NCBI GenBank assembly: GCA_902801515.1 | Contig: CADCII010000020.1 | Location: 2,097-66,096, forward strand | Length of the DNA stretch: 64,000 nucleotides | DNA from: an uncultured Lachnospiraceae bacterium | GTDB lineage: Bacteria; Bacillota; Clostridia; Lachnospirales; Lachnospiraceae | Direction of reading: 5' to 3' | Part shown: piece after piece, positions 1,876-55,819 of the stretch | Numbering within the stretch: the first letter of the stretch is position 1 | How the letters are laid out: every line of letters starts with the position of its first letter | Position numbers and translations under genes: made by a program | The notes under the pieces: model-generated | The model's input: the letters and a program-made list of their open reading frames with translations, nothing else | Databases searched by the model: none | What the model was told of the DNA's origin: nothing

Positions 1876-2067
1876 ATCCGTCTCCTGAATCACATCAAAG
1901 GTTTCATAATATAAGTAACCCACAAAAACCGCATAAAATCAAGCATTATTCGAAACTGATCCAAAACTGGACTCTGTCTCAGTTCACTTCTGTGCCATAT
2001 TATCCTTGAGTAATTGTGTCCTGCCGCCTCTGCGCGGTCATGATGAAAGATGGAAAGGAAGGCAGCA

Positions 2068-5000: not shown

Positions 5001-6969
5001 GACGGCGCCATATAAGGACGATGTGAACGTGACAGGATATGAGATCTGGAGAAAGACCGAAGACAGCCCATGGGAGCAGGTAATCTATGATCCCGGGGAT
5101 GTTTTATTTGAAACGGAGTCAGGCAAATACGCTTATACAGACACAGGGCTTGCGGATGGTAAGACTTACCTGTACTACGTTTCAGCGATCACTGAAACTG
5201 CCGCTCCTCAGCGTAAATCCGTTGAGAGAGAGGTGACGGTATTTGAACAGTACACACCTCCTGCAACTCCGGTCCTGAAGATGCCTGTATTGACAGGAAA
5301 CGCATATTATCCAGATCTCCTGATCTCCTGGGAGAAACCTTCTGCAGGACGTCCGACCGCCTATTATCTGGAGTTTCAGAAAACTCTTAACGGCGTGCAG
5401 GGAGAATGGGAAGACTGGATAAAACTCAGCCATGAGCGTCGCCCGCTCCGGGTAGAAACAGACCAGGCGGGCTTTGTCACAGGCCAGATGAGTATACAGC
5501 AGTATAACTATTGGGATCCTTTCAGCTATGCAGAGGGAGATACTGTCAGTTTCCGTCTGCAGGCAGTCAATTCTCTGGGCGAAAGTGAATGGAGCGAACC
5601 GGTCACCATCAGCCCTGCAAGGCTGATCGCAGACTATTTACAGGAGGATACAAAGCCCTGTCCTTATTATGCTGAGCCTGCCGCTGAGCGTGGAGACGGA
5701 CAGGTGACCCTTACCTGGAACCAGGTACTGCCGACGGATGAATATGCCCAGGTGCTCTATTATAAAATCTTCCGCTATAAAGTGACAGCCACTCAAGGAT
5801 CGACTGCGGCTGACTGGCAGACAACATACTATGACTATGATGCTCCGGATACAGTGGCACAGATCCCGGCGGAGCAGGACAGCTACACGTATACAGATAC
5901 AGACCTTGAAAATGGGCAGCTCTATGCATACCATGTAGCTGCCTGCAGCGCAGATGGACATTACTATAACGAAGGGATCACAGCGATTCAGTACATGAAG
6001 GGCGTTGTCATGATCACCCCTCATGGACAGCTCAGTGAAGAGGCCGAAGCAGCGCAGACACTGGTTGATAATCTTCCGGCCGCAGGGACTGTAACAGAAG
6101 ACATCCTGCAGGATCAGGATGCGCTCCGTGACCTTGAGGAGCAGATACAGGAGAGCAAAGACGCTCTTGCAGCTTTACCGGAAGATGAACAGGACCAGGT
6201 GGATCAGGCAAAGCTCAACGAGCTGGAGTCTCATCTGGAAGCGCTGAAGCAGGAGGCAGGCCAGCAGGGCGATCCGAATCTGCAGACTATGACACTCAGC
6301 GGGACTAAGGCGTACACGCAAAGAGCCAGCGCAGGAGCGTTCAGCCTCCAGGTAAAATGTTCAGCAGCGGATGCGGAACTGACTTATACATCCGGCAATA
6401 CAAAGGTAGCAAAGGTAGATGCGAATGGCCGTGTGACGCCGGGCACAGCCGGCACAGCGAAGATCAGGGTACAGGCTGCATGCACAGGCTATGCGGATAC
6501 GGAGATGACCCTGACCGTCACGGTGACAGGGCTTGCGAAGGGCGGGAGCAGCGTCTGCGCAGCCGGAACATCAAGAGCACTTTACAAGGTGACAGGTACC
6601 GACACTGTCACCTATGTAAAGTGCAAAGCTGCAGCAGATGCCAAAACCCTGTCAGTGCCGGCCACGGTTACGATCAACAGGGCAGTCTACAGAGTGACCG
6701 CTGTCGGAGCCGGCGCATTTACCGGCTATAAGAAAGTGAAGAAACTGACCATCGGGGCAAACACTGCTTCGATCGGAAGCCAGGCATTCAAAAAATGCAA
6801 AAAACTGAAGACACTGACGATACAGACCACAAAGCTGACCAAAGGAAGTATCAGAAAAGCGCTGAGCGGCTCTTCGGTCAAAAAGGTCAAAGTGCCAAAA
6901 GCGGTCAAAAAAGCATATAAACAGATATTCAAAAAGAAAGTGTGCGGGCGGAAGGTATCTGTAAAATAA
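2068..6969 (+). CDS. Giant secreted or cell-surface protein with repeated fibronectin-type-III-like modules, a Big_2-like domain and a C-terminal BspA-type leucine-rich repeat
   Basis: The signal or anchor sequence is MNKTRKLISILCIVCMMSQILSGYIFA. Many modules follow the pattern W...Y.IYR...Y.Y.V.A. A coiled-coil segment reads LRDLEEQIQESKDALAALPEDEQDQ. A Big_2-like stretch reads LTYTSGNTKVAKVDANGRVTPGTAGTAKIRVQA. An LRR_5-like stretch reads AFTGYKKVKKLTIGANTASIGSQAFKKCKKLKTLTI. No LPXTG motif is present. An RBS (GGAAAGGAAGG) precedes the ATG at 2068. Confidence 0.85.
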   Translation: MNKTRKLISILCIVCMMSQILSGYIFASEDIYVIGEDNSYEQEIMLEAPDEGAEEDYADLIEDVDEDPGTDADDAAVQSAAETESEVQPEGTAAPETEEVLSLEDASDNDGEESAGEFITACEDGGQASLRILDSNTADGKPVTAIDFGTIDLSQASGTYSREIYYRQGDAGDAPVIAGSPIFTVGGNWFEYPAEYNGVNDAIFGNPFTRGAEGLSSSSIRDEIRLNVDKMLAGTYTATYHVFAQPQCVDANGLLENDPDSGEILIPMRVQLTGINSSLPDRVENLSAEAGNGQVILQWDAIDSFGVCDSTYNIYRRTGSETGDDPDRYDYSLYEQIDIVPASDGITRYIDETVENGETYSYFVMGSEPGQGYPSIAVAATPTDQAPFRPAAPDLSAGPVTGAVELDWNLTADEDLYPGYSEGWADGAGVIDHFNVYRNGVIVAQVDQNACIRRPDEDKYEWITRIPCEDLSGENLYAGYTWWVTAVAVEEKGGLEGHESSHKNVSPYSGKPLIQAFRTVWDPDDPSVTLYAEAEYSMKCLKVWRNGVYLGPSDKYSNGEYRFEDTTAKRGKTYTYLLAFVDHSNVESEPVTITVKTQGSEYLELGSPRVVYGENWYILNGKTAVIENVDVDADATYRVMKNNEAVAVYGAGGTAADTISYRDTPADPGTYIYRVDKEQDGITMSSVEFAFIKEAQGSIAGQKPCAPELTARICGRPGDRNVQLSWTKSSDGAEPEGYYIYRTDNGTYNTGMFNRSDGHEEYTASHYGQPEPAQNRYFRRYAPGNSFLDENVEWTYSAMYRLKYWVCAYNRYGVSEPSQVIVYEPVDANGDGIPEEPENEDTLAPGEPLIIDFSVSCNPETYGINDNYYYGYLNVSWEQSPSGGGVDSYNIQFQLAGGGSYSVTRYPGASGEDGQMTAYDIVYFPKDYGVCHVTVTAENSEGTASSETEYLVGGIPSLRVSPAQSPEGVSGASAYLEWTAPYKDDVNVTGYEIWRKTEDSPWEQVIYDPGDVLFETESGKYAYTDTGLADGKTYLYYVSAITETAAPQRKSVEREVTVFEQYTPPATPVLKMPVLTGNAYYPDLLISWEKPSAGRPTAYYLEFQKTLNGVQGEWEDWIKLSHERRPLRVETDQAGFVTGQMSIQQYNYWDPFSYAEGDTVSFRLQAVNSLGESEWSEPVTISPARLIADYLQEDTKPCPYYAEPAAERGDGQVTLTWNQVLPTDEYAQVLYYKIFRYKVTATQGSTAADWQTTYYDYDAPDTVAQIPAEQDSYTYTDTDLENGQLYAYHVAACSADGHYYNEGITAIQYMKGVVMITPHGQLSEEAEAAQTLVDNLPAAGTVTEDILQDQDALRDLEEQIQESKDALAALPEDEQDQVDQAKLNELESHLEALKQEAGQQGDPNLQTMTLSGTKAYTQRASAGAFSLQVKCSAADAELTYTSGNTKVAKVDANGRVTPGTAGTAKIRVQAACTGYADTEMTLTVTVTGLAKGGSSVCAAGTSRALYKVTGTDTVTYVKCKAAADAKTLSVPATVTINRAVYRVTAVGAGAFTGYKKVKKLTIGANTASIGSQAFKKCKKLKTLTIQTTKLTKGSIRKALSGSSVKKVKVPKAVKKAYKQIFKKKVCGRKVSVK

Positions 6970-11167: not shown

Positions 11168-11994
11168 CCAGAATAATTGAGGCAGACCCGACAGTCTGGA
11201 ACAATTTTCATATACATACTTACCGGTGCAGGCATGCTGAGGGAGATATAGCAGACTATGTAAAGAAGGCTGCAGAACTGGGCATGAACAAGATCGGTTT
11301 CTCAGAACACGCTTTCATTGCAGGCATGGAGAATCCTCTGTGCATGCCGGAGGAAGACATTCCGGGATATGTTGAAGCATGCCGCGCAGCGGACGGGGAA
11401 CAGGGGGTCAGTGTCCTGTGCGGGATGGAATGTGATTATGACCCGTCAGATGAATCATTTTTCCGGGAGTTTTACCTCGGGAAATTCGGAATGGATTATC
11501 TTGTGGGATCGGTACATGTACTTAAAGGCAGGCATGATACCATGAACGTATTTGCCAATTCCCACTTCGGTGTAAAAGAACTGCGCATATACACGGATCT
11601 CTATGTCAGGATGATAGAGAGCAGACTTTTTACATTCTGCGCACATCCGGACCTGTTTGGCAGACCCATCGAAGTCGGTGAAGGTTCAAATGGATGGGAT
11701 GAGAACGCGGAGGCTGCAGCGAAGGAGATACTTGACGCGGCTGAGGAAAACAACACTGTTCTTGAGATCAATACCAGCGGGATATGGAAGACCCGGGAGA
11801 GAGGGCATAAAACCATTATCTATCCGCGCTGGCAGTTCTGGGAGATGGCGTCAGACAGAAACATCAGAGTGATCGCCAATACAGACTCGCATAGCGTTGA
11901 GAGACTTGATTCGGGTATCGATTACGGAATGGAGCTGATCCGCCGCTATAACCTGCAAAGAGTCGAACTGGAAAAAGACCAGGCAAGAGACTAA
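11164..11994 (+). CDS. PHP-domain phosphoesterase, HisJ (histidinol-phosphatase)-like
   Basis: FHIHTYRCRHA is the H-x-H motif at the start of the PHP fold, with GFSEHA and NTDSH further along. The start overlaps the CAT-like gene through an ATGA. Confidence 0.8.
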   Translation: MTRIIEADPTVWNNFHIHTYRCRHAEGDIADYVKKAAELGMNKIGFSEHAFIAGMENPLCMPEEDIPGYVEACRAADGEQGVSVLCGMECDYDPSDESFFREFYLGKFGMDYLVGSVHVLKGRHDTMNVFANSHFGVKELRIYTDLYVRMIESRLFTFCAHPDLFGRPIEVGEGSNGWDENAEAAAKEILDAAEENNTVLEINTSGIWKTRERGHKTIIYPRWQFWEMASDRNIRVIANTDSHSVERLDSGIDYGMELIRRYNLQRVELEKDQARD

Positions 11995-13487
11995 GTAAGC
12001 TTTATTGCGAGGATTTTTTCAAACAGCGGCTTATCCGCGCAGACAAGAAGACACAGATTTTCACGGGTCCTGGACAGGCCTTCATAGAGAAGGCGCAGGG
12101 CCTCTTCTTCATTTTCCCGGCACCTCAGATGCTGTTCTTCGTCGTAATAGAAATTCTCATCAAGGACCATGAGAACCCTGTCATATTCACGGGCAATGAC
12201 GTCCTCTTCATTTTCATCCCCGCCCGTCATACTCACGTAGACATAGCCCTTCTCTTTATAATACTCTTCCAGAAGCTTTCTCTCCGCCTCATCGTTTGCG
12301 AACACAACATCGATACAGCTGTAGTCAGTCCGGCCCGGACGGTCATTTGGCCGCAGCAGTGTCCTGAGGAAAGAATACACCGGACGGTTGATCCTGATGT
12401 TTCCGCTGAAGGACAGGTGGAGCGTGCTCACCTTCGCAAAGATGCCTGACGCACAGGATTGTGCATGGTCCTGCGTCAGGGCAGAAGTATCCAGCAGCTC
12501 ATGGGTGTCATACGTCAGGATGACAGGGATATTTCTTTCTTTTGCTTTGAAATAAAGAGATTCCCACGCGTTCATTTCCAGGTGATCCGCTTCATCAAGC
12601 AGGAGATAGTCATATCCGGCAAGGTCTGCCTGCGGAATCTGGCTGTTTCCGATGATGTCAACATTTTTCAGCCTCTGGTCAATGGCGATGTGTCCGCGGC
12701 GAAGCGGTCCGGAATGCACGAACAGCACCCGCTGTTTTCTGGACAGTTCCAGACACAGATCCAGCAGGAGCAGCGTTTTTCCCGTACCTGCGATACCGGC
12801 GATGCTGATAACAGGGGAGTCTTTGCCGGCACAGCCTTCCTGCAGATAGGACAGGATCCGCCGCCTGAAATCAAACTGCTGGTTGGTGAGGAAATATCTG
12901 CCCTGAAGAAAATCTTCCGGCGACGCGATGGGAGAGATCAGATAGTCCGCAGCCTTGAAGAAGGAATCGATCCCATCCTCAAGATAATCAGCCAGCGCCT
13001 CTTTCATCAGAACATTTATCAGATCCGGAAGATCACATTTCTTAAGAAAGCCCTTCTCATTTAACATGTAGAACTGACCGGTCTCCATGACGTAGGTAAA
13101 GGAATAGATGGTCCCGGCGATATGAGACAGGTAATAACGGTTCAGTTCAAGCTGCTTCTTGATCCGCTCTTCCCCGGTCATCTCACTCTTCAACTCGATA
13201 TTGAGGATGCAGGATCCGTCATTCGCAATCTTCAGAAGGTCGAACTCCTTGCCGATATGCTCGATCACATAGGAGAAATAAAAGCCGTCCAGGAGGTTAA
13301 GCCAGTTTCCCTGACTGCTGTTTTGGGCAAGATACGCAGCAATCATATCTGTGAGCGACCACAGAGAAGCAGCCTCATGCTCACTGATACTCTTGGCATC
13401 CTCCCGGCAGGAAAGCGCCTGACAGAGCATGGACACAGTTCCGGCATCATGAGTTCTGGTTAAGAGGAGAAGATTCAAAGCTTTCAT
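11991..13487 (-). CDS. PD-(D/E)xK nuclease-like N-terminal domain fused to a DUF2075/SF1-like P-loop NTPase
   Basis: The N-terminal stretch FDLLKIANDGSCILNIELKS fits a D-x14-E-x-K nuclease motif. Walker A is IAGIAGTGKTLLLLDL and Walker B is YDYLLLDEADHL. The C-terminus, REYDRVLMVLDE...GLSRTRENLCLLV, resembles UvrD_C/DUF2075. Confidence 0.65.
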   Translation of the reverse strand: MKALNLLLLTRTHDAGTVSMLCQALSCREDAKSISEHEAASLWSLTDMIAAYLAQNSSQGNWLNLLDGFYFSYVIEHIGKEFDLLKIANDGSCILNIELKSEMTGEERIKKQLELNRYYLSHIAGTIYSFTYVMETGQFYMLNEKGFLKKCDLPDLINVLMKEALADYLEDGIDSFFKAADYLISPIASPEDFLQGRYFLTNQQFDFRRRILSYLQEGCAGKDSPVISIAGIAGTGKTLLLLDLCLELSRKQRVLFVHSGPLRRGHIAIDQRLKNVDIIGNSQIPQADLAGYDYLLLDEADHLEMNAWESLYFKAKERNIPVILTYDTHELLDTSALTQDHAQSCASGIFAKVSTLHLSFSGNIRINRPVYSFLRTLLRPNDRPGRTDYSCIDVVFANDEAERKLLEEYYKEKGYVYVSMTGGDENEEDVIAREYDRVLMVLDENFYYDEEQHLRCRENEEEALRLLYEGLSRTRENLCLLVCADKPLFEKILAIKLT

Positions 13488-19084: not shown

Positions 19085-19175
19085 ATGAACAGGTGCCTGC
19101 TGAACAAGTGCCTGTCACTTGTTCTTGAACAGGTGCCTGTCACTCGTTCTTGAACAGGTGCCTGTCACTTGTTCA
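19085..19175 (+). repeat. Tandem array (3.6 units, 25-bp period) of a palindromic REP-like element, loop orientation CCTGT
   Basis: The full units are TGAACAAGTGCCTGTCACTTGTTCT (19101-19125), TGAACAGGTGCCTGTCACTCGTTCT (19126-19150) and TGAACAGGTGCCTGTCACTTGTTCA (19151-19175). A partial unit lies at 19085-19100. In each unit GAACAAGTG pairs with CACTTGTTC. Confidence 0.9.
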
Positions 19176-20100: not shown

Positions 20101-20152
20101 CTGCACAAGTGACAGGCACTTGTTCTTAAACGAGTGACAGGCACTTGTTCAC
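20091..20152 (-). repeat. REP-like element array (2 full units plus 1 partial), inverted loop orientation ACAGG
   Basis: The sequence reads GCACAAGTGACT (partial unit, containing the radical-SAM stop codon), then GCACAAGTGACAGGCACTTGTTCT, then TAAACGAGTGACAGGCACTTGTTCAC. Confidence 0.9.
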
Positions 20153-23250: not shown

Positions 23251-23766
23251 GTGAGACTGTTTATAGCGATACAATTCAATAAAGAGATAACAGATTCGCT
23301 GGTGCAGCTGCAGGAAGACATGAAAACCCAGGGCGTCCAGGGCAATTACACAAAACCGGAAAACCTGCATCTGACCACAGCATTTATCGGAGAGTACGGC
23401 AATCCGGACGAAGTGATGAACGCACTCGAACAAGTTACGTTCGACCCATTTCCGATCAAACTGGATGGAGTGGGACAGTTCGGAGACATCTTCTGGGCCG
23501 GAACAGCGGACAGTGAAGAACTGAAAATCCTGGTAAAGCGCATACGCAGAGCACTGTCACAGCAGGAGATCCCCTTTGACAAGAAGAAATTCTCCCCGCA
23601 CATCACTCTGATCCGCCGGGCCTGGTACAGACACGGAGAAAAGATCCCCGTGTACAGAACACCCGAGACAGAGATGACAGTCACCTCCGTATCACTGATG
23701 AAATCCGAGCGCGGCAGACATGGGATGATCTACACCGAGATCGGCGCCATAGACTGCAGAGAATGA
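23251..23766 (+). CDS. thpR: RNA 2',3'-cyclic phosphodiesterase (2H family, LigT/ThpR)
   Basis: Two H-x-T/S-x motifs are present, HLTTAF and HITLIR, and the size of about 170 aa fits the family. The start is a GTG. Confidence 0.8.
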   Translation: MRLFIAIQFNKEITDSLVQLQEDMKTQGVQGNYTKPENLHLTTAFIGEYGNPDEVMNALEQVTFDPFPIKLDGVGQFGDIFWAGTADSEELKILVKRIRRALSQQEIPFDKKKFSPHITLIRRAWYRHGEKIPVYRTPETEMTVTSVSLMKSERGRHGMIYTEIGAIDCRE

Positions 23767-23788
23767 ACAAGTGCCTGTCACTTGTTCA
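23764..23788 (+). repeat. Single REP-like palindromic unit overlapping the thpR stop codon
   Basis: TGAACAAGTGCCTGTCACTTGTTCA is a perfect consensus unit. A partial arm, TTCTTGTTCAAC, follows it. Confidence 0.9.
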
Positions 23789-36172: not shown

Positions 36173-36229
36173 TTGCACAAGTGCCTGTCACTCGTTCAAC
36201 TTTGCACAAGTGCCTGTCACCTGTTCACC
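36173..36229 (+). repeat. Two tandem REP-like units (about 28-bp period), loop orientation CCTGT
   Basis: The two units are TTGCACAAGTGCCTGTCACTCGTTCAAC and TTTGCACAAGTGCCTGTCACCTGTTCACC. Confidence 0.85.
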
Positions 36230-49648: not shown

Positions 49649-51516
49649 CATTCTACAGTAACACTCTTTGCAAGGTTCCTGGGCTTGTCCACATCCAGTC
49701 CGCGGGCAACTCCGCTGTAATATCCGAACAGCTGGAGCGGCACGACAGCCAGGCTTGCCATGAAATGAGGATCCGTCTTCGGGACATATACCGTGAAGTT
49801 GGCGGAATCCTCCGCACTGTAATTGCCGTAGCAGGTTAGCGCCATCAGGTAGGCGCCTCTTGCCTTGCACTCGGTCATATTGCTGACAGTCTTCTCAAAC
49901 AGATCGTTCTGTGTCAGAACGCCGATCACAAGCATATTGTCTTCGATCAGGCTGATGGTACCGTGCTTCAGCTCTCCGGCGGCGTAGGCTTCGGAGTGTA
50001 CATAACTGATCTCTTTAAGCTTAAGGCTTCCTTCCAGGCTGATGGCATAGTCGAGACCGCGGCCGATGAAGAAAATATCCCTTGCGTTGGAATACTTTGC
50101 CGCAAACCACTGGATACGTTCTTTCTCTTCCAGGATACGTTCGATCTTGTCCGGGATCGAAGACAGCTCCCTCAGATAATACTCATATTTATCATCATCG
50201 ATAAGTCCGCGGACATATCCGGCCTGGACTGCCAGGCAGTACATGGCGGCCAGTTGGGCGGAGAAGGCCTTCGTAGTGGCGACTGCGATCTCGGGCCCCG
50301 CATGGGTATAGAGGACATGATCGGCTTCTCTTGCGATGGTGGATCCGACGACATTGACAACGGCAAGAGTGCGGACCCCCATCTCCTTTGCCCTGCGAAG
50401 CGCGGCAAGGCTGTCCGCGGTCTCTCCGGACTGGGAGATCACGATAAGCAGCTCATTTTCCCCCGGCAGGACCCTGCGGTACCGGTATTCCGAGGCAAGC
50501 TCGACCCGGACAGGGATCTGTGTGATATCCTCCAGTATGTACTGTGCAGCCATTCCAACGTGCCAGGCAGAGCCGCATGCAACGATGCGGATCGACGCGG
50601 CATCGCGAAGAACCTCGTCACTCAGGCCTGCAGCCTCCAGACAGATCCGGCCGTCCGTGATCAGGCTTGCAAGCGTATCCCGGACAGCTGCGGGCTGCTC
50701 ATAGATCTCTTTGATCATGAAATGTTCAAAGCCGTTTTTCTCTGCAGCCTTTGCATCCCAGGTGATTTGGGTACTTTCCAGCTGTACCTCGTCCCCGTTC
50801 AGGTCGTAGAAATGAACTTCGCCCGGGCGAAGCTGAGCGATCTGCAGGTTGCCGATGTAATAGACATTGCGGGTATAGTTCAGGATCGCCGGGACATCAG
50901 ACGCAAGGTAGGATTCATTTCCATCGATTCCGATGATCATCGGCGCATCCTTGCGGGCGGCGTAGATCTCACCGGGATAATCGCGGAACATCAGGGCGAG
51001 AGCGTAGGTCCCGCGCACACGCACCAGTGTGCGGTTGATAGCATCGATCGGACCAATCTTATACTTCTTGTAATAGTAGTCGATCAGCTTGACCACGACC
51101 TCCGTGTCGGTGTCGCTGTAGAACTGGTATCCGTGCCTGGCCAGCTTCTCCTTGAGTTCCAGATAGTTTTCAATGATGCCGTTGTGAACACCAGCGACCT
51201 CAGACTCAACCTGCCCTGAACCGGATCCCGAACAGTTGCCGCTCACATGGGGATGCGCATTGGTCTGGCTGGGCTCGCCGTGTGTAGCCCACCTGGTATG
51301 CCCGATCCCGCAGGTACCGGCAAGAGACCTCCCGCCATCCGTTTTCTCAATCAGACTGCGCAGTTTGCCCGTCGATTTGACCACTTCAGCAAGATCAGAC
51401 CCGTTGCGCACGGCAAGACCTGCAGAGTCATAGCCTCTGTACTCCAGCCTTCCGAGTCCGTCAAGAAGGACCGGGGCCGCCTGCTGAGTTCCTGTATATC
51501 CGACTATTCCACACAT
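49648..51516 (-). CDS. glmS: Glutamine--fructose-6-phosphate aminotransferase (isomerizing)
   Basis: MCGIVGYTG supplies the N-terminal nucleophile Cys. Two SIS domains are present (SQSGETADSL and others), and the C-terminus reads DKPRNLAKSVTVE. Confidence 0.95.
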   Translation of the reverse strand: MCGIVGYTGTQQAAPVLLDGLGRLEYRGYDSAGLAVRNGSDLAEVVKSTGKLRSLIEKTDGGRSLAGTCGIGHTRWATHGEPSQTNAHPHVSGNCSGSGSGQVESEVAGVHNGIIENYLELKEKLARHGYQFYSDTDTEVVVKLIDYYYKKYKIGPIDAINRTLVRVRGTYALALMFRDYPGEIYAARKDAPMIIGIDGNESYLASDVPAILNYTRNVYYIGNLQIAQLRPGEVHFYDLNGDEVQLESTQITWDAKAAEKNGFEHFMIKEIYEQPAAVRDTLASLITDGRICLEAAGLSDEVLRDAASIRIVACGSAWHVGMAAQYILEDITQIPVRVELASEYRYRRVLPGENELLIVISQSGETADSLAALRRAKEMGVRTLAVVNVVGSTIAREADHVLYTHAGPEIAVATTKAFSAQLAAMYCLAVQAGYVRGLIDDDKYEYYLRELSSIPDKIERILEEKERIQWFAAKYSNARDIFFIGRGLDYAISLEGSLKLKEISYVHSEAYAAGELKHGTISLIEDNMLVIGVLTQNDLFEKTVSNMTECKARGAYLMALTCYGNYSAEDSANFTVYVPKTDPHFMASLAVVPLQLFGYYSGVARGLDVDKPRNLAKSVTVE

Positions 51517-51535
51517 AAAAACATCTCCTCAGAAT

Positions 51536-51607
51536 CTGAACAAGTGCCTTTTGAACAAGTGCCTGTCACTTGTTCAAAATTAAACAAGTGACAGGCACTT
51601 GTTCAAG
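51536..51607. repeat. REP-like units in the glmS leader: one partial unit plus two full units in opposite loop orientation (REPIN-like doublet)
   Basis: The partial unit is CTGAACAAGTGCCT. The full units are TTTGAACAAGTGCCTGTCACTTGTTCAAA (51550-51578) and ATTAAACAAGTGACAGGCACTTGTTCAAG (51579-51607). Confidence 0.9.
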
Positions 51608-51610
51608 TTA

Positions 51611-51654
51611 AATATAAAATAAGGCGTCAGCGGGACAGACCCCACTGACGCCTT
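51611..51654 (-). terminator. Intrinsic terminator of the helicase operon
   Basis: AAGGCGTCAG-(14 nt)-CTGACGCCTT forms a perfect 10-bp stem. On the minus strand it is followed by ATTTTATATTT. Confidence 0.75.
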
Positions 51655-51732
51655 TGTCATTAAGGATAATAAAAATAAAATAAGTGGCTTTATTATAAAT
51701 AGATAATGTCTGAATGTAAAGAGCGGCGGGTA

Positions 51733-54105
51733 TCAGATGCCCTCAGTCCACTCGCCGATCCGCTGCTTCAGGCCTTCGATATCCAGAACGCCGTACGCGA
51801 AGCCTCTTCGCACCAGTTCTTCCGGGAGGATGTCGTCATACTTGTCAAAGACGGGAACCTCTTTCGGATAGAGCAGCTCCATGGGATCGATCCCTTCTTC
51901 CATCTCTTCCTTCAGCACTTTGTAGAATTCCTGCTCGCTGACTCCTAGTGTAAACTGGCAGAAATAAGGCCGCACGGAGTTGAATCCTTTCAGCCCCAGC
52001 CGCTTTGCGCAGCGGATCCGCAGGAATCTTTCCAGCGCAAGAAAGGCGTAGCTTCCAAGCCAGGGGGTAAGGCAGTACATGCTCCCGCCAAGGCTGACCA
52101 GCGGCCGGTAGCCGAGACCTGAGTGCAGGGCGTCCACACGTGCGGTCATGAGCCTGGCCTGCGCATTCTTCAGAAGATAGGGATAATCCGATGTCTCCAG
52201 AAGGACCTGTCTCATACGCTCCAGGATCTTCGTGTGAATGTCACCGGGCTCCTCCCCGAAATAAGCGGGGACCCTGCCCTTGATCATGTGGCAGTAGACC
52301 TGGTGATGAGTGCGGTCCACTTCCTCGACAACCCAGACATGTCCGGCGATGGCGATCCGGTCTCCGATGGGGGGCGGCTTGACGATAGTCCCGATCTCCT
52401 GGGACTCGCACCGGACACTGTACTCTTCATTTTCCTGGAAGACCGCGTAGAACTTGAAATTGTTCGTTATGCGCTCTCCGGCAAGACCGACGATCAGGCC
52501 CCTTTCCTCCGTCAGCTCTATGTGATCCTTCGCGATCAGGTCATTGATGAGGATACGGAAGTCATCCCTGGTGACATTCTCAAAAGGAGCCAGGGTAAGG
52601 ACTCTGGATGCAAGCTCCGCCGGAGACATCTCTCCGCCCGATGCCAGGGTGCTCATGGTCTGGTGGTAGAGCAGGCTGAAAGGAAGCCGGCCTCTGCGCG
52701 GGGGCTCGACCCAGCGCTCTTCCAGATAGAGCTGGACCAGCGCGATCCCCTGCAGGAGTGCCCACGGGATCTTGTCAGGGAGGAGATCCCTTGCTTCCGC
52801 ATGTTCTTCTCTCATGACAAACCACATCTCACAGGGCTCGCCCCTTCTTCCGGTGCGGCCCATCCTCTGGAGAAATGCAGAGACCGTGAACGGAGCATTG
52901 ATCTGGAAAGCACGCTCCAGCTTGCCGATATCGATGCCAAGCTCCAGGGTGGCAGTGGTGCAGGTAGTCAGGGCTGAATCGTCATCGCGCATCTCATCTT
53001 CCGCAGTCTCCCTGAAAGCGGTGGACAGGTTGCCGTGATGGATCAGAAAACGGTCCGGCTCATGATTGTATTCACAGTACGCGCGAAGTGTCGTGGTGAC
53101 CTCTTCACATTCTTCTCTGGAATTGCTGAAGACCAGACATTTCCGGCCGCGGGTATGCTCAAAGATATAGCCCATGCCCGGATCCGCTGTGAGCGGCGCT
53201 TTGTCCGTAGGCTTCGCGTCCGCCTTTGTCTGGCGAAGCACAGACACGTCAGCCTTCGCGATGCCGGACGCCGATACATCCGCCTTCACCCCGCCATCCG
53301 CCGGCATCTTCGAGGTTCCTATGGCCGGCCGCATGCTTGCCGACGGGACCCCGCCTGCCCATGCGCTCTTTTCCGGGTTCTCTATGATGTCGGATGCCTG
53401 CGGCGCTGCATTGAAGAAATGCTCCATGGAAAGTCTCCAGCGCATGCCCTTTGCTTTGATATCCGGAATGACAGTGCCCCTTCCGGAACCGGCGGCGAGG
53501 AACCTTCCGGCTTCCTGCGGATCACCTATGGTCGCGGACAGACCGATCCTTCTGGGATTTGCACCGGACAGTCTGCACAGTCTCTGGACCAGGCACATGC
53601 ACTGTCCGCCGCGGTCGCCGCGAAGAAGCGAATGAATCTCATCGATCACTACATACCGAAGATCTCCGAACAGTTTCGGGACTTCGCTGTGCTTGTGCAT
53701 CAGAAGCGCCTCCAGGGACTCCGGCGTGATCTGCAGGATGCCCGAAGGGTGTTTGAGCAGTTTCTTCTTGTGGGAAGAGGAGACGTCGCCGTGCCAGTGC
53801 CAGACCGGGATGTGGCCCTCCTCGCACAGGTCATTTAACCGGATGAACTGGTCGTTGATCAGAGCCTTGAGAGGCGCGATATACAGACAGCCCACCGATT
53901 CCGGCGGATCCTCGGTAAACTCTGTGAGAATCGGGAAGAAAGCGGCTTCCGTCTTCCCGGATGCGGTGGAGGCGCACAGCAGGACATTCTGGTCCGTATT
54001 GAATATGGCGTCCCCTGCCGCAACCTGGATCGCCCTGAGGTCCTGCCAGCCGCTGCGGTATATGAAATCCTGTATAAAATCCGAATAACGGGAGAAGATA
54101 TCCAT
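51733..54105 (-). CDS. Lhr-like (COG1201-type, BrxHI-like) DEAD/DEAH-box helicase
   Basis: The N-terminus is GWQDLRAIQVAAGDAI. Motif I is CASTASGKTEAAF, motif II is VVIDEIHSL, motif III is GLSATIG and motif VI is LQRMGRTGRRG. A C-terminal extension of about 300 aa follows. Confidence 0.8.
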   Translation of the reverse strand: MDIFSRYSDFIQDFIYRSGWQDLRAIQVAAGDAIFNTDQNVLLCASTASGKTEAAFFPILTEFTEDPPESVGCLYIAPLKALINDQFIRLNDLCEEGHIPVWHWHGDVSSSHKKKLLKHPSGILQITPESLEALLMHKHSEVPKLFGDLRYVVIDEIHSLLRGDRGGQCMCLVQRLCRLSGANPRRIGLSATIGDPQEAGRFLAAGSGRGTVIPDIKAKGMRWRLSMEHFFNAAPQASDIIENPEKSAWAGGVPSASMRPAIGTSKMPADGGVKADVSASGIAKADVSVLRQTKADAKPTDKAPLTADPGMGYIFEHTRGRKCLVFSNSREECEEVTTTLRAYCEYNHEPDRFLIHHGNLSTAFRETAEDEMRDDDSALTTCTTATLELGIDIGKLERAFQINAPFTVSAFLQRMGRTGRRGEPCEMWFVMREEHAEARDLLPDKIPWALLQGIALVQLYLEERWVEPPRRGRLPFSLLYHQTMSTLASGGEMSPAELASRVLTLAPFENVTRDDFRILINDLIAKDHIELTEERGLIVGLAGERITNNFKFYAVFQENEEYSVRCESQEIGTIVKPPPIGDRIAIAGHVWVVEEVDRTHHQVYCHMIKGRVPAYFGEEPGDIHTKILERMRQVLLETSDYPYLLKNAQARLMTARVDALHSGLGYRPLVSLGGSMYCLTPWLGSYAFLALERFLRIRCAKRLGLKGFNSVRPYFCQFTLGVSEQEFYKVLKEEMEEGIDPMELLYPKEVPVFDKYDDILPEELVRRGFAYGVLDIEGLKQRIGEWTEGI

Positions 54106-54197
54106 GGTACACCTCGGTGGGGTGCCCCCGCCTTCTCAGGCAAAGAGCCGCTCGTGTGTTTCAATGCGTTCCTGAATCCTGTCCTCTGACAGTGTAT

Positions 54198-55565
54198 TCA
54201 TAAAATGAAATCGGCGTATTCTTCATCGACGGGATCGTCACTCACAGCTTCACTTTTTGCATATGAGAATTCATCCGATCCGAGCAGTTTTTCGACATTC
54301 ATGTCCGGGTGCTGGTACAGAATATCCAGCAGCTCGATAAAGTCGCGGATCACTTCACGCGGAGTGATGTGGGAATCCGCCCCGATCCGCCCGTACTCGA
54401 TCCGGATGAAAGTCACCAGATCTCCGGTGGATATGGTCCTGGGATACCCGTACAGCCCTGCGTGCATATCGGCAAGCTTCTCACACAGCACCATCATCTC
54501 CTCGGAAGTCAGAGCCTCCAGGCGAATGACGGGAGCCAGCAGATCCCGGGAGCCTTCCCTGGAAAATTTCCCTTCCGAGAGGCGGGATCGCAGTGCCTCA
54601 TAGCTGTAGATGCCCCTTCTGGTATCCTCGATGCACTGAGGCGTTCCGCTCATGAGGATCCCCAGATACTGGGCCTTCCCCTGAAGCGTATCGTTGTACA
54701 TGGTAAGGATCTTCTCATAATTGTTATTGCGGGTGATGGACTGGGGGATCTTGTAGATATTCACCAGTTCGTCGATAAAGATCAGCAGGCCCCTGTAGCC
54801 GGCGAGCCGGAAGAACATGGCGAACAGCTTCAGGTAATCATACCAGTCATCATCAGTAATGATCACATTAACGCCAAGATCTCTGCGGGCCTCCGTCTTT
54901 GTGGCATACTCACCGCGGAGCCATTTAATGACCTTTCCTCTGGTCTCGTCGTCATCGGACAGGTACGCACGGTAGTAGAGCGTGATCAGGCGTGCGAAAT
55001 CAAAGCCGTGGACCATCTCGCCAAGAGAGTTGATGACCTCACGGATCATTTTTCCGACTTCATCCGGAAATGAAGGCGCCGATACGTCAAGCCCTGTGCG
55101 CTCCGCGACAGCAGACTGAACCGCGCTGATCCAGCGGTCGAGGACCAGCGTCAGGGCTCCACCCTCCGGCCTGGTCTTCGTGGCAAGGTTTGAGATCAGT
55201 TCACGGTAGGTCGCAAGCCCCTGCCCCCGGGTGCCCTGCAGGCGCCTCTCGGGAGAGAGGTCGGCATCCATGACAGCAAAACCTCTGTCCATCACGTTAT
55301 TGCGGATCGTCTGCAGCAGGAAACTCTTGCCGCTTCCGTAGCGTCCGACGATGAAGCGGAAAGACGCCCCGCCCTCGCCAATGATCTCCACATCCCGCAG
55401 CAGCGCCTCGATCTCACTGGTGCGCCCGACCGTGATGTAGGGAAGCCCGACCCTTGGAACGACGCCGCCCTTCAGGGAACTGATGACCGCCTGGGCGATC
55501 CTTTTGGGGACTTTCCTTCCTGTCTGCGGGGAAGTGCTCTGATTCATCTGTATACTGTCTGCCAT
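54198..55565 (-). CDS. DUF2791 / BrxD-like P-loop ATPase
   Basis: KRIAQAVISSLKGGVVPRVGLPYITVGR, Walker A (VGRYGSGKSF), Walker B (LLIFIDELV) and the acidic tail EEYADFIL match my recollection of BREX BrxD/DUF2791 proteins. The ATG at 55565 has an AGGAG RBS; the track start at 55571 is a TTG. Confidence 0.7.
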   Translation of the reverse strand: MADSIQMNQSTSPQTGRKVPKRIAQAVISSLKGGVVPRVGLPYITVGRTSEIEALLRDVEIIGEGGASFRFIVGRYGSGKSFLLQTIRNNVMDRGFAVMDADLSPERRLQGTRGQGLATYRELISNLATKTRPEGGALTLVLDRWISAVQSAVAERTGLDVSAPSFPDEVGKMIREVINSLGEMVHGFDFARLITLYYRAYLSDDDETRGKVIKWLRGEYATKTEARRDLGVNVIITDDDWYDYLKLFAMFFRLAGYRGLLIFIDELVNIYKIPQSITRNNNYEKILTMYNDTLQGKAQYLGILMSGTPQCIEDTRRGIYSYEALRSRLSEGKFSREGSRDLLAPVIRLEALTSEEMMVLCEKLADMHAGLYGYPRTISTGDLVTFIRIEYGRIGADSHITPREVIRDFIELLDILYQHPDMNVEKLLGSDEFSYAKSEAVSDDPVDEEYADFIL

Positions 55566-55790
55566 CAACAATCTCCTGAAAATGAACTGCCGGTAGATAT
55601 TGCCTGACCGGCAAACCGGTCTGAAACGTATCTATCATTGTACCATACTTTTCGAATATTTGTTCGACTATTTTCAGGCGCATCATCAGCTTGCCTTTAG
55701 CGGACTATCGGCGTACCTGCGCAGGGCCGCCTGGAGTATTCGGAAAATCCGCCAACAGAAATGCTGTCTGCCGCCGCAGATATATGTACC

Positions 55791-55819
55791 TTGCACGAAA
55801 ATTCTGATATACTGATAAT
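55791..55819 (+). promoter_or_regulatory. Sigma-70-type promoter of the udp-cdd-deoC operon
   Basis: A -35 box TTGCAC is separated by a 17-nt spacer from a -10 box GATAAT. The site lies about 70 nt upstream of the udp ATG. Confidence 0.45.

What the first reader, a model, noticed from the sequence alone, without database searches (positions are those of the whole stretch)
51733..55565. Orphan BrxD-like (DUF2791) ATPase plus Lhr-like helicase operon with no other BREX or Ter genes: candidate stand-alone defence or DNA-surveillance module
Seen in the sequence: two co-directional genes lie 92 nt apart on the minus strand. They have their own terminator (51611-51654) and a 320-bp upstream region. 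The first gene encodes a P-loop protein with Walker A GRYGSGKSF, Walker B LLIFIDELV and an acidic C-terminal tail. The second encodes an SF2 helicase with Lhr-type motifs (ASTASGKTEAAF, DEIH, SAT, QRMGRTGRRG) and a ~300-aa C-terminal extension. Established knowledge: DUF2791-type ATPases (BrxD) paired with Lhr-like helicases (BrxHI) are described as accessory genes of type 2 BREX (Goldfarb et al. 2015). DUF2791 ATPase plus helicase operons have also been noted next to TerB-domain genes (Anantharaman, Iyer and Aravind 2012). Here no PglZ, PglX methyltransferase, PglW, BrxA-C or TerB gene occurs within at least 8 kb on either side. The pair is wedged between housekeeping genes (glmS on one side, udp-cdd-deoC on the other), and its downstream boundary carries a REP-like doublet. 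Inference: the pair may work as an autonomous two-gene module whose mechanism has not been characterised.
Basis: partly seen in the sequence, partly recalled or inferred. Interest (0 to 1): 0.7.

Follow-up and report, generated by a model that had tools for sequence, protein, structure and literature searches.

The report
Shango defence pair without TerB gene
These two genes are the ATPase and helicase of the known Shango anti-phage system; in one group of gut Lachnospiraceae the usual third (TerB-type) gene is gone from the locus, yet selection has kept the pair intact, and a DNA-damage (LexA) switch appears to control it.

Summary
Two intact co-directional genes lie on the minus strand (54198-55565 and 51733-54105), with the stated motifs, spacing and flanks.

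They are not BREX accessory genes. PADLOC identifies them as SngB (632 bits) and SngC (899 bits) of Shango, a validated three-gene anti-phage system. Its third gene, SngA (TerB_N/TerB_C), is absent from the whole window.

In about 135 related loci SngA sits directly upstream of SngB. Apart from one short MAG contig (L040), only one Lachnospiraceae clade lacks it: the window plus seven or eight metagenomic lineages. In this clade the sngBC block is inverted next to udp.

Since that change both genes have stayed under purifying selection as strong as on neighbouring housekeeping genes (dN/dS 0.03-0.12). This is not a decaying remnant.

The pair has its own conserved extended -10 promoter. It is overlapped by CGAACAAATATTCG, a LexA-type operator identical to the one in front of uvrB in a related genome, where Shango is appended to uvrBA.

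Best reading: a functional, probably SOS-induced, SngA-less Shango core. An SngA gene elsewhere in the genome cannot be excluded. This is a new variant of a known system, of moderate interest.

The parts
54198..55565 (-). sngB: BrxC_BrxD/DUF2791-family P-loop ATPase, 455 aa. Walker A is at 55320-55346, Walker B at 54762-54788, and the conserved acidic tail ...EEYADFIL at 54201-54239.
   Evidence: ORF; Pfam PF10923 567 bits; PADLOC SngB 632 bits against BrxD 173; motif coordinates; dN/dS 0.045-0.12 within the SngA-less clade.
51733..54105 (-). sngC: SF2 helicase, 790 aa. It has RecA1 (motif I at 53938-53973, DEIH at 53632-53643, SAT at 53530-53538), a hypervariable low-complexity linker, RecA2 (motif VI at 52840-52869), and then a winged helix, a five-strand beta-barrel and an unmatched alpha/beta domain.
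   Evidence: ORF; Pfam DEAD + Helicase_C; PADLOC SngC 899 bits; AF2 models; Foldseek best matches Lhr 5v9x and MrfA 6znp; C-terminal region has only winged-helix matches; dN/dS 0.03-0.045.
53212..53457 (-). Region encoding the disordered, length-variable linker between RecA1 and RecA2 of SngC (aa 217-298).
   Evidence: pLDDT below 50. Length differs among relatives, 773-803 aa. This is the site of the +1 frameshift in L001.
55653..55666 (-). LexA-type (Cheo/SOS) box CGAACAAATATTCG, overlapping the -35 position of the sngB promoter.
   Evidence: One mismatch from CGAAC-N4-GTTCG. Conserved in all SngA-less lineages with upstream sequence, while the flanks are unalignable. The identical 14-mer lies 28 nt before uvrB in L057. 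It fits the clostridial motif GAACnnnnnTTC (PMC4234289).
55637..55645 (-). Extended -10 promoter element TGGTACAAT of sngBC. The inferred transcription start is near 55630.
   Evidence: Conserved as TGnTAnAAT in all SngA-less loci, and in the SngA-SngB spacer of L091, L088 and L002. Not experimentally mapped.
55572..55577 (-). Ribosome-binding site AGGAGA, 6 nt before the sngB ATG.
   Evidence: Sequence; conserved in the alignment of upstream regions.
51611..51654 (-). Intrinsic-terminator-like hairpin (15 bp) plus T-run, 79 nt after the sngC stop. It also lies in the glmS leader.
   Evidence: Terminator scan; conserved in L087, L001 and L096.
51692..51720 (-). Promoter-like site TTTACA-17-TATAAT directly after the sngC stop, facing glmS. 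It is adjacent to the module, not part of it.
   Evidence: 11 of 12 consensus matches; conserved in L087, L001 and L096.
51547..51608 (.). Doublet of a REP-like palindromic repeat between the hairpin and glmS. This is a lineage-specific insertion at the rearranged junction.
   Evidence: The 21-nt palindrome occurs at 5 sites in the window, 0 expected. Present in L087 and in L096 (partly masked by N), absent from L001. Only spurious miRNA-model hits in Rfam.

Best explanation
The locus is the conserved ATPase-helicase core (SngB-SngC) of a Shango anti-phage system.

Shown: in the ancestor of one Lachnospiraceae clade the sngB-sngC block was inverted next to udp, and the TerB-type first gene, sngA, left the locus. 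The pair already had its own promoter and has since been inherited with the flanking housekeeping genes under strong purifying selection. It is therefore still a working unit.

Inferred: the promoter is repressed by LexA, so the pair is produced when DNA damage, phage replication or prophage induction generates RecA-coated single-stranded DNA. SngB is a BrxD-family P-loop NTPase. It then works with SngC, an Lhr/MrfA-like SF2 translocase carrying a winged helix and a beta-barrel. Together they bind and track along single-strand-containing DNA intermediates and interfere with the replication of foreign DNA. No nuclease domain is recognisable in either protein. The effect would therefore come from ATP-driven remodelling or from recruiting host nucleases.

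In canonical Shango the hypervariable SngA would add sensing or localisation. Here the core acts without an adjacent SngA.
For: Identity: PADLOC SngB 632 bits and SngC 899 bits, far above BrxD and BrxHI. The TerB_N/TerB_C neighbours in relatives are SngA by PADLOC.

Derived loss: SngA is directly upstream of SngB in essentially all 80 species-representative loci and all 57 metagenome loci. The full sngA-sngB-sngC set lies co-directionally next to the same udp-cdd-deoC genes in sister lineages L002, L088 and L008. The SngA-less loci are window, L087, L001, L092, L093 and L094, which form one clade in the SngB tree. L096 and L095 share the layout or high identity and were added later.

Functionality: dN/dS is 0.045-0.12 for SngB and 0.03-0.045 for SngC at dS 0.5-1.4, the same range as udp, glmS and deoC. 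About 30 intact helicase clusters at 89-98% identity were found. There is no excess of changes at conserved positions. All catalytic motifs are intact.

Own promoter: the block CGAACAAATATTCG-N10-TACAAT (with TG) is conserved in otherwise unalignable spacers, and it was already present in the SngA-SngB spacer of L091 and L002.

LexA: the identical 14-mer precedes uvrB at -28 in L057, where uvrB-uvrA-sngA-sngB-sngC form one tight cluster. Two of the only three perfect CGAAC-N4-GTTCG boxes in 2.1 Mb lie at sngA promoters, in L010 and L012. There are 10 boxes with at most one mismatch in the 62.7 kb upstream of sngA, against 2.2 expected. In L096 only the N4 spacer of the box differs.

Helicase type: Foldseek top hits are Lhr and MrfA. 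SngC groups with BrxHI, DruE and DpdJ in a defence-specific SF2 clade (PMC12278908). DruE acts on ssDNA-containing replication intermediates (PMC13192584).
Against: - Only 64 kb of the genome is visible, so an sngA gene elsewhere is not excluded. The unchanged constraint on every conserved SngB and SngC position is also what a still-present partner would produce.
- A single one-mismatch LexA box is not significant by chance in the window (3 found, 1.8 expected). Most Shango loci have no such box. The loci that carry boxes are partly related to each other. LexA binding is untested.
- No interaction between SngB and SngC, no helicase polarity and no anti-phage activity has been measured for this or, to my knowledge, any Shango.
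- The RecA2 part of the structure model is poor.
- Vertical inheritance and housekeeping-level constraint would also fit a repair role rather than defence.
Confidence: 0.55

Rival explanations
1. Split but canonical Shango. The rearrangement only separated sngA from sngBC. SngA is still encoded elsewhere in the genome, and the three proteins work together as usual.
For: In the sister lineages sngA and sngBC were already separate transcription units with a 170-250-nt spacer and an internal promoter, so a separation would be tolerated. No conserved surface of SngB or SngC shows relaxed constraint in the SngA-less clade. The region that flanked sngA in relatives (uvrA, RlmL, ABC transporter) is not in the window, so that place cannot be inspected.
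Against: There is no SngA in the 64-kb window or in the fetched 21.4 kb of the 59.6-kb L001 contig. All 57 SngA genes recovered from metagenomes, and all SngA genes in the species-representative loci, are immediately followed by SngB; no orphan SngA was seen.
Confidence: 0.25
2. Domesticated SOS repair module. In this clade the ATPase-helicase pair no longer defends against phages. It has become a LexA-regulated DNA-repair or replication-restart factor, comparable to Lhr or MrfA.
For: There is a LexA-type operator identical to that of uvrB. Shango is physically linked to uvrBA in this Lachnospiraceae group. SngB and SngC diverge in step with udp (82-83% against 83-84% identity), and their dN/dS is at housekeeping level. 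The closest solved folds are the repair helicases Lhr and MrfA. The pair is not in a defence island; its neighbours are metabolic genes.
Against: The proteins remain 70-83% identical to Shango components that move between phyla together with SngA, which is typical defence-system behaviour. The SngA-containing sisters carry the same box, so SOS control is not specific to the SngA-less form. There is no direct evidence for a repair role.
Confidence: 0.13
3. Decaying remnant. After losing SngA the pair is non-functional and on its way to pseudogenisation.
For: PADLOC and DefenseFinder define Shango as three genes (my own knowledge). The L001 helicase is split by a +1 frameshift.
Against: dN/dS is 0.03-0.12 across all pairs at dS up to 1.4. 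Both genes are intact in the window, L087 and L096, and the helicase is intact in about 30 further clusters. The L001 frameshift lies in a CCGGCCGGCC run of the hypervariable linker of what is probably a long-read contig (inferred from its name), and both halves have dN/dS near 0.03. The promoter and operator are conserved.
Confidence: 0.03
4. BREX type 2 accessory pair (BrxD + BrxHI), whose PglZ, PglX and PglW partners lie outside the window.
For: The Pfam family is named BrxC_BrxD. The BrxD and BrxHI models do match at lower scores.
Against: The SngB and SngC models score 2.4-3.7 times higher. NCBIfam BrxD gives 174 bits against a cutoff of 350. Every close relative has SngA, not Pgl genes, next to the pair. 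No BREX component is among the 48 other window ORFs.
Confidence: 0.02

Closest known systems
Shango (SngA-SngB-SngC), Millman et al. 2022 and Johnson et al. 2022/2023. This is the same operon type as the TerB-linked DUF2791 ATPase + helicase cluster of Anantharaman, Iyer and Aravind 2012.
   Same: SngB and SngC are full-length, high-scoring members (632 and 899 bits), in the same order and orientation. Close relatives at 79-85% identity are complete three-gene Shango loci at the same chromosomal place.
   Different: There is no sngA at the locus or within 64 kb. sngBC is driven by its own promoter carrying a LexA-type box. The locus is not in a defence island and is inherited with the flanking core genes. 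sngB and sngC are separated by 92 nt rather than abutting.
BrxD + BrxHI of BREX type 2 (Goldfarb et al. 2015; my own knowledge and PADLOC model names).
   Same: The same two protein families are paired without a TerB protein (PF10923 ATPase; SF2 helicase of the SngC/BrxHI/DruE/DpdJ clade, PMC12278908). This shows that the ATPase-helicase pair is a module that can serve different partners.
   Different: Scores for the BrxD and BrxHI models are far lower, and the NCBIfam BrxD cutoff is not reached. No Pgl or Brx genes are present.
Lhr-core and MrfA (YprA) DNA-repair helicases (PDB 5v9x, 7lhl, 6znp).
   Same: These are the best sequence and fold matches among solved structures. They share an SF2 core followed by a winged helix and further C-terminal domains. 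They have a DNA-damage context.
   Different: Identity is only 15-19%. Pfam DEAD_assoc and DUF1998 are absent, and the NCBIfam Lhr models are far below cutoff. The terminal alpha/beta domain has no PDB match. SngC has an obligate ATPase partner gene.
Druantia III helicase DruE (PMC13192584).
   Same: Same defence-specific SF2 clade (PMC12278908). It is reported to engage ssDNA-containing replication intermediates, which is the kind of substrate proposed here.
   Different: DruE is much larger and carries a nuclease. It has different partner genes. PADLOC DruE models match only short stretches of SngC.
DNA-damage-controlled defence loci with WYL regulators (for example PMC12392091).
   Same: Both couple defence-gene expression to DNA damage.
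   Different: Here the proposed regulator is the host LexA acting on a Cheo-type box, not a dedicated WYL protein encoded at the locus.

Membership tests
Shango | SngB-type DUF2791/BrxC_BrxD P-loop ATPase | tested here: met
   PADLOC SngB 632 bits over the full length; Pfam PF10923 567 bits.
Shango | SngC-type SF2 helicase directly downstream of SngB | tested here: met
   PADLOC SngC 899 bits, residues 3-781; co-directional, 92-nt gap.
Shango | SngA (TerB_N + TerB_C protein) encoded directly upstream of SngB | tested here: not met
   Upstream is a 324-nt spacer and a divergent udp. tblastn with SngA and PADLOC on 48 window ORFs are negative. Relatives do have it.
Shango | Protection against phage when expressed | not testable with these tools
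   Shown for the E. coli and P. aeruginosa three-gene systems only.
BREX type 2 accessory pair (BrxD/BrxHI) | BrxD equivalog | tested here: not met
   NCBIfam NF033438 gives 174 bits against a cutoff of 350; PADLOC BrxD 173 against SngB 632 bits.
BREX type 2 accessory pair (BrxD/BrxHI) | BrxHI helicase as the best match | tested here: not met
   PADLOC BrxHI 379 bits against SngC 899 bits.
BREX type 2 accessory pair (BrxD/BrxHI) | PglZ, PglX, PglW and BrxC in the neighbourhood | tested here: not met
   No such PADLOC hit among the 48 other window ORFs; none in relatives' loci.
Lhr helicase family | Lhr-like SF2 core fold with a following winged helix | tested here: met
   Foldseek top hit 5v9x, E=1e-16; winged helix recognised in the C-terminal model.
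Lhr helicase family | Family HMMs (NCBIfam Lhr and ligase-associated DEXH helicase; Pfam DEAD_assoc) | tested here: not met
   TIGR04121 gives 196 bits against a cutoff of 850; NF007284 gives 79 against 1496. No DEAD_assoc hit at E<0.01.
LexA (SOS) regulon of Firmicutes | Operator of type GAAC-N4-GTTC/T (or GAACnnnnnTTC) in the promoter region | tested here: met
   CGAACAAATATTCG at 55653-55666 overlaps the -35 position, 10 nt from the -10. Motif definitions are from PMC4234289. The site is identical to the one 28 nt before uvrB in L057.
LexA (SOS) regulon of Firmicutes | Conservation of the operator among orthologous promoters | tested here: met
   The half-sites are invariant in all SngA-less lineages examined, and L096 differs only in the N4 spacer. 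Related boxes occur in L091 and L002 and at sngA promoters of other lineages.
LexA (SOS) regulon of Firmicutes | LexA binding and induction by DNA damage | not testable with these tools
   Needs EMSA or footprinting, and expression data after mitomycin C or UV.

The most novel reading that the evidence does not exclude
SngB-SngC is a self-sufficient, LexA-controlled machine for surveying DNA intermediates, and the TerB-type SngA is a dispensable, fast-evolving accessory. On this reading the Lachnospiraceae clade is a natural separation-of-function experiment. It would also mean that Shango in these gut bacteria belongs to the SOS regulon: fused to uvrBA in L057, and carrying a perfect LexA box in L010 and L012. 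That would tie an anti-phage system of unknown mechanism directly to the host DNA-damage response.
Probability: 0.3. Interest if true: 0.6.

Novelty: new variant of a known kind. Interest (0 to 1): 0.42.

Why it matters
Shango is widespread. It is experimentally validated, but no mechanism is described in the literature searched.

This locus gives three handles on the problem:
- A natural lineage in which the ATPase-helicase core has been kept by selection for a long time (dS about 1) without the adjacent TerB gene. This suggests which part is the engine and which is the accessory.
- A contrast in evolutionary rate. SngA has a median identity of 31%, against 74% for SngB and 70% for SngC. That fits a variable sensor attached to a conserved engine.
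- A concrete, testable regulatory link to LexA and the SOS response, and to uvrBA.

The locus also shows that detection rules requiring all three genes will miss functional-looking two-gene derivatives.

Tried and rejected
- BREX assignment: rejected on the model scores.
- Hidden or degraded sngA in the 324-nt spacer or elsewhere in the window: tblastn, a local HMM and PADLOC were all negative.
- Orphan sngA in public metagenomes: none among 57 loci.
- Pseudogenisation: rejected by dN/dS and by the intact homologues.
- Relaxed constraint on a putative SngA-binding surface: no signal.
- glmS ribozyme or another Rfam family between sngC and glmS: none. There were only spurious miRNA-model hits on the REP palindrome.
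- A nuclease or other effector fold in the SngC C-terminus: no PDB match beyond a winged helix.
- Chance significance of the LexA box in the window alone: not significant. The case rests on conservation, position and the uvrB comparator.
- REP elements as the cause of the rearrangement: not supported. They are absent from L001 and the other relatives examined, apart from L087 and L096.
- A general uvrBA-Shango linkage: seen only in this Lachnospiraceae group.
- The 1639-aa ORF at 2050-6969 as a defence gene: it is an fn3/LRR surface protein.
- Whether relatives exist that have udp-cdd-deoC without any Shango genes could not be tested.

Full report
**Observation.** The two ORFs are real and intact. 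The ATPase gene is 54198-55565(-), 455 aa from the ATG that homologues use. The helicase gene is 51733-54105(-), 790 aa. Every quoted motif is present at the coordinates listed under 'parts'. The genes are 92 nt apart, and 324 nt separate sngB from the divergently transcribed udp. A 15-bp hairpin with a T-run follows sngC. The 'REP-like doublet' belongs to a family of 21-nt palindromes found at five intergenic sites in the window, with none expected by chance. glmS lies on one side and udp-cdd-deoC on the other.

**What the proteins are.** Pfam places the first protein in BrxC_BrxD (PF10923, formerly DUF2791; 567 bits). The second has DEAD and Helicase_C domains only. The defence-specific PADLOC library is decisive:
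- SngB scores 632 bits against 173 for BrxD.
- SngC scores 899 bits against 379 for BrxHI.
- NCBIfam's BrxD equivalog is missed: 174 bits against a cutoff of 350. All Lhr-type equivalogs fall far below their cutoffs.

The pair is therefore the ATPase and helicase of Shango. Shango is a three-gene system: SngA with a TerB-like domain, the SngB ATPase and the SngC helicase. It was shown to protect E. coli and P. aeruginosa from phages. No mechanistic study of Shango is in the searched library, and no component has a solved structure.

**Is SngA really missing, and is that usual?** tblastn with two SngA proteins from close relatives finds nothing in the 64-kb window. A PADLOC scan of 48 other window ORFs finds no SngA, although SngA proteins of this clade score about 1e-42 with that model.

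Elsewhere the three genes are almost inseparable:
- In 80 species-representative genome loci fetched with SngB, a local HMM finds SngA directly upstream of SngB wherever enough flank exists.
- In 57 metagenome loci fetched with SngA, SngB always follows.

There are two exceptions. One is a short contig of an Oscillibacter MAG, L040. The other is a single clade containing the window.

**How the two-gene form arose.** Relatives with 79-85% identical SngB carry the full set:
- L002, L088/L007 and L008 have sngA-sngB-sngC co-directional with, and directly upstream of, the same udp-cdd-deoC-GDPD genes.
- L091 has sngA-sngB-sngC, but its contig ends before any downstream genes.

The SngA-less members are the window, L087 (95.9% DNA identity), L096-98, L001, L092, L093 and L094, probably together with L095. 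In these the sngB-sngC block is inverted, so that sngB faces udp, and sngA is gone. Six of these loci form one clade in an SngB tree, sister to the SngA-containing udp-linked clade. L096 shares the layout. L095 is added on sequence identity only, because its contig starts inside sngB and so does not show the upstream gene.

The downstream junction is glmS in most lineages. It differs in L095, and a single inversion cannot produce the glmS junction, so more than one rearrangement step occurred. The REP doublet at that junction is a later insertion, because L001 lacks it.

**Is the pair still functional?** Yes, by every sequence test available.
- Nei-Gojobori dN/dS between SngA-less lineages is 0.045-0.12 for sngB and 0.03-0.045 for sngC, at dS 0.5-1.4. 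This is indistinguishable from udp, glmS and deoC on the same contigs (0.025-0.09).
- About 30 protein clusters of the clade's helicase, at 89-98% identity, are intact at 773-803 aa.
- The one split helicase (L001) has a +1 frameshift in a CCGGCCGGCC run of the hypervariable linker. Both halves show dN/dS near 0.03, so an assembly error or a very recent event is likely.
- Positions at least 97% conserved across all other Shango loci are no more often changed in the SngA-less clade than in its SngA-containing sister. For SngB the counts are 4-6 of 176 against 5-7. For SngC they are 8-9 of 280 against 5-8.

The last result cuts both ways. It fits an intrinsically functional core, and it also fits a partner that still exists elsewhere.

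SngB and SngC identity between the two clades (82-83%) tracks that of udp (83-84%). This indicates co-inheritance with the flank.

**Regulation: the unexpected part.** The spacers upstream of sngB in the SngA-less lineages are otherwise unalignable, but they share one invariant block: CGAACAAATATTCG, then 10 nt, then TA(C/T/A)AAT preceded by TG. This is an extended -10 promoter whose -35 position is covered by a 14-mer.
- L096 differs only in the central N4 (AAAC).
- The SngA-containing sisters L091 and L002 have CGAACAAATGTGCG plus TGnTAnAAT in their unusually long sngA-sngB spacers. So sngBC was already a separate transcription unit before sngA was lost.

The 14-mer is one mismatch from the Firmicute LexA operator CGAAC-N4-GTTCG. 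It fits GAACnnnnnTTC, one of the motifs used for clostridial LexA (PMC4234289).

By chance alone one such hit in 64 kb means nothing: 3 were found and 1.8 expected. Three further observations give it weight:
1. In the Lachnospiraceae MAG L057 the identical 14-mer lies 28 nt before the ATG of uvrB, just after an extended -10. The C. difficile uvrB box is at -30.
2. In L057 the genes uvrB-uvrA-sngA-sngB-sngC are co-directional and almost contiguous. uvrBA also lies about 3.5 kb upstream of sngA in L002, L008 and L088.
3. Only three perfect CGAAC-N4-GTTCG boxes exist in the 2.1 Mb of fetched DNA. Two of them sit at sngA promoters, in L010 and L012. Boxes with at most one mismatch occur 10 times in the 62.7 kb upstream of sngA, against about 2.2 expected, in roughly five lineages.

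Most Shango loci have no box, and the lineages that carry one are partly related. LexA control is therefore an inference. I put it at roughly two in three for this locus. It is not a demonstrated fact.

**The proteins as machines.** AlphaFold models built on an alignment of 38 homologues give:
- a confident RecA1;
- a disordered, length-variable linker (aa 217-298);
- a poorly modelled RecA2;
- a well-modelled C-terminal region (pLDDT 83 when modelled alone), made of a winged helix, a five-strand beta-barrel and an alpha/beta domain.

The full model's best PDB matches are Lhr (5v9x, E=1e-16) and MrfA (6znp), then Hel308, Hjm and Brr2. So 'Lhr-like' holds for the fold, though family membership is not met. 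The isolated C-terminal region matches only winged-helix proteins, and nothing reaches E of 1e-3 or better. No nuclease fold was recognisable.

SngC falls in a defence-specific SF2 clade with BrxHI, DruE and DpdJ (PMC12278908). DruE is reported to act on ssDNA-containing replication intermediates (PMC13192584).

From this I infer that SngB and SngC form an ATP-driven DNA-tracking unit acting on single-strand-containing intermediates. Nothing here shows their interaction, substrate or effect.

**Verdict.** The family assignments were broadly right, and the absence of a TerB gene is real. However, the module is a known system (Shango) in a derived, essentially clade-restricted two-gene state. 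It is neither a BREX offshoot nor a widespread unnamed architecture. The best-supported reading is a functional, probably SOS-induced, SngA-less Shango core. The main rival is an sngA gene relocated outside the window. I rate it a new variant of a known kind, of moderate interest. It offers a natural separation-of-function lineage and a testable LexA link for a defence system whose mechanism is unknown.

Noticed in passing
window 11991-13487 (-): A 498-aa ORF matches the PADLOC AbiO (363 bits) and Nhi (339 bits) models over its full length. It is a candidate single-gene abortive-infection or defence protein, about 40 kb from sngBC.
   Followed up: partly
window 19103-19173, 20104-20149, 23766-23786, 36176-36225, 51554-51603: A family of 21-nt REP-like palindromes (AACAAGTGCCTGTCACTTGTT) occurs in singlets, doublets and a triplet at intergenic sites, with 0 expected by chance. 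In Rfam it gives only spurious miRNA-model hits.
   Followed up: partly
window 51516-51732 (-); also L087, L001, L096: A conserved promoter (TTTACA-17-TATAAT), then a terminator-like hairpin, then the RBS and ATG of glmS. There is no glmS ribozyme by Rfam. This could be an uncharacterised attenuator-type glmS leader that doubles as the sngBC terminator.
   Followed up: partly
L057 3060-13636: uvrB-uvrA-sngA-sngB-sngC are co-directional and nearly contiguous behind one extended -10 promoter with a LexA box. Here Shango seems appended to the SOS-regulated uvrBA operon.
   Followed up: partly
L010 7899-7912 and L012 7992-8005: Perfect CGAAC-N4-GTTCG boxes, each followed by TGnTATACT, lie directly upstream of sngA. 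These are two of only three perfect boxes in 2.1 Mb of fetched sequence.
   Followed up: partly
69 Shango loci (L002-L086): SngA is hypervariable (median pairwise identity 31%), while SngB (74%) and SngC (70%) from the same loci are highly conserved. This suggests a fast-evolving sensor or adaptor on a conserved engine.
   Followed up: partly
L011, L013, L030, L032, L047, L054, L080 and others: SngB is 70-75% identical across MAGs assigned to Bacteroidales, Lactobacillus, Chloroflexi, Planctomycetes, Spirochaetes, Myxococcota and Kiritimatiellia. This points to recent cross-phylum transfer in gut and rumen communities, or to some mis-binning.
   Followed up: no
L003-L006, about 11452-12187 in L003: A nucleotidyltransferase/HEPN (MNT-HEPN-type toxin-antitoxin) gene pair is inserted between sngB and sngC of an otherwise complete Shango.
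   Followed up: no
L040 1-2214: A second, independent SngA-less sngB-sngC occurs in an Oscillibacter MAG. An M20-peptidase-like ORF ends about 60 nt before sngB. The contig is only 3.2 kb, so mis-assembly is not excluded.
   Followed up: partly
L001 11388-13731: The helicase is split by a +1 frameshift at a CCGGCCGGCC run in the hypervariable linker. Both halves are under strong purifying selection, so this is probably an assembly error.
   Followed up: yes
window 51736-52440 (-), SngC aa about 555-790: A confidently modelled beta-barrel plus alpha/beta C-terminal domain has no significant match in the PDB. It carries invariant residues (for example PWxGxY, ER, FDKYD) of unknown role.
   Followed up: partly
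window 55782-55814: A second conserved block (CAGTATATCAGAATTTTCGTGCAAGGTACATAT on the minus strand) lies near udp in all SngA-less loci but not in the SngA-containing sisters. It is presumably the udp promoter or operator created or brought in by the rearrangement.
   Followed up: no
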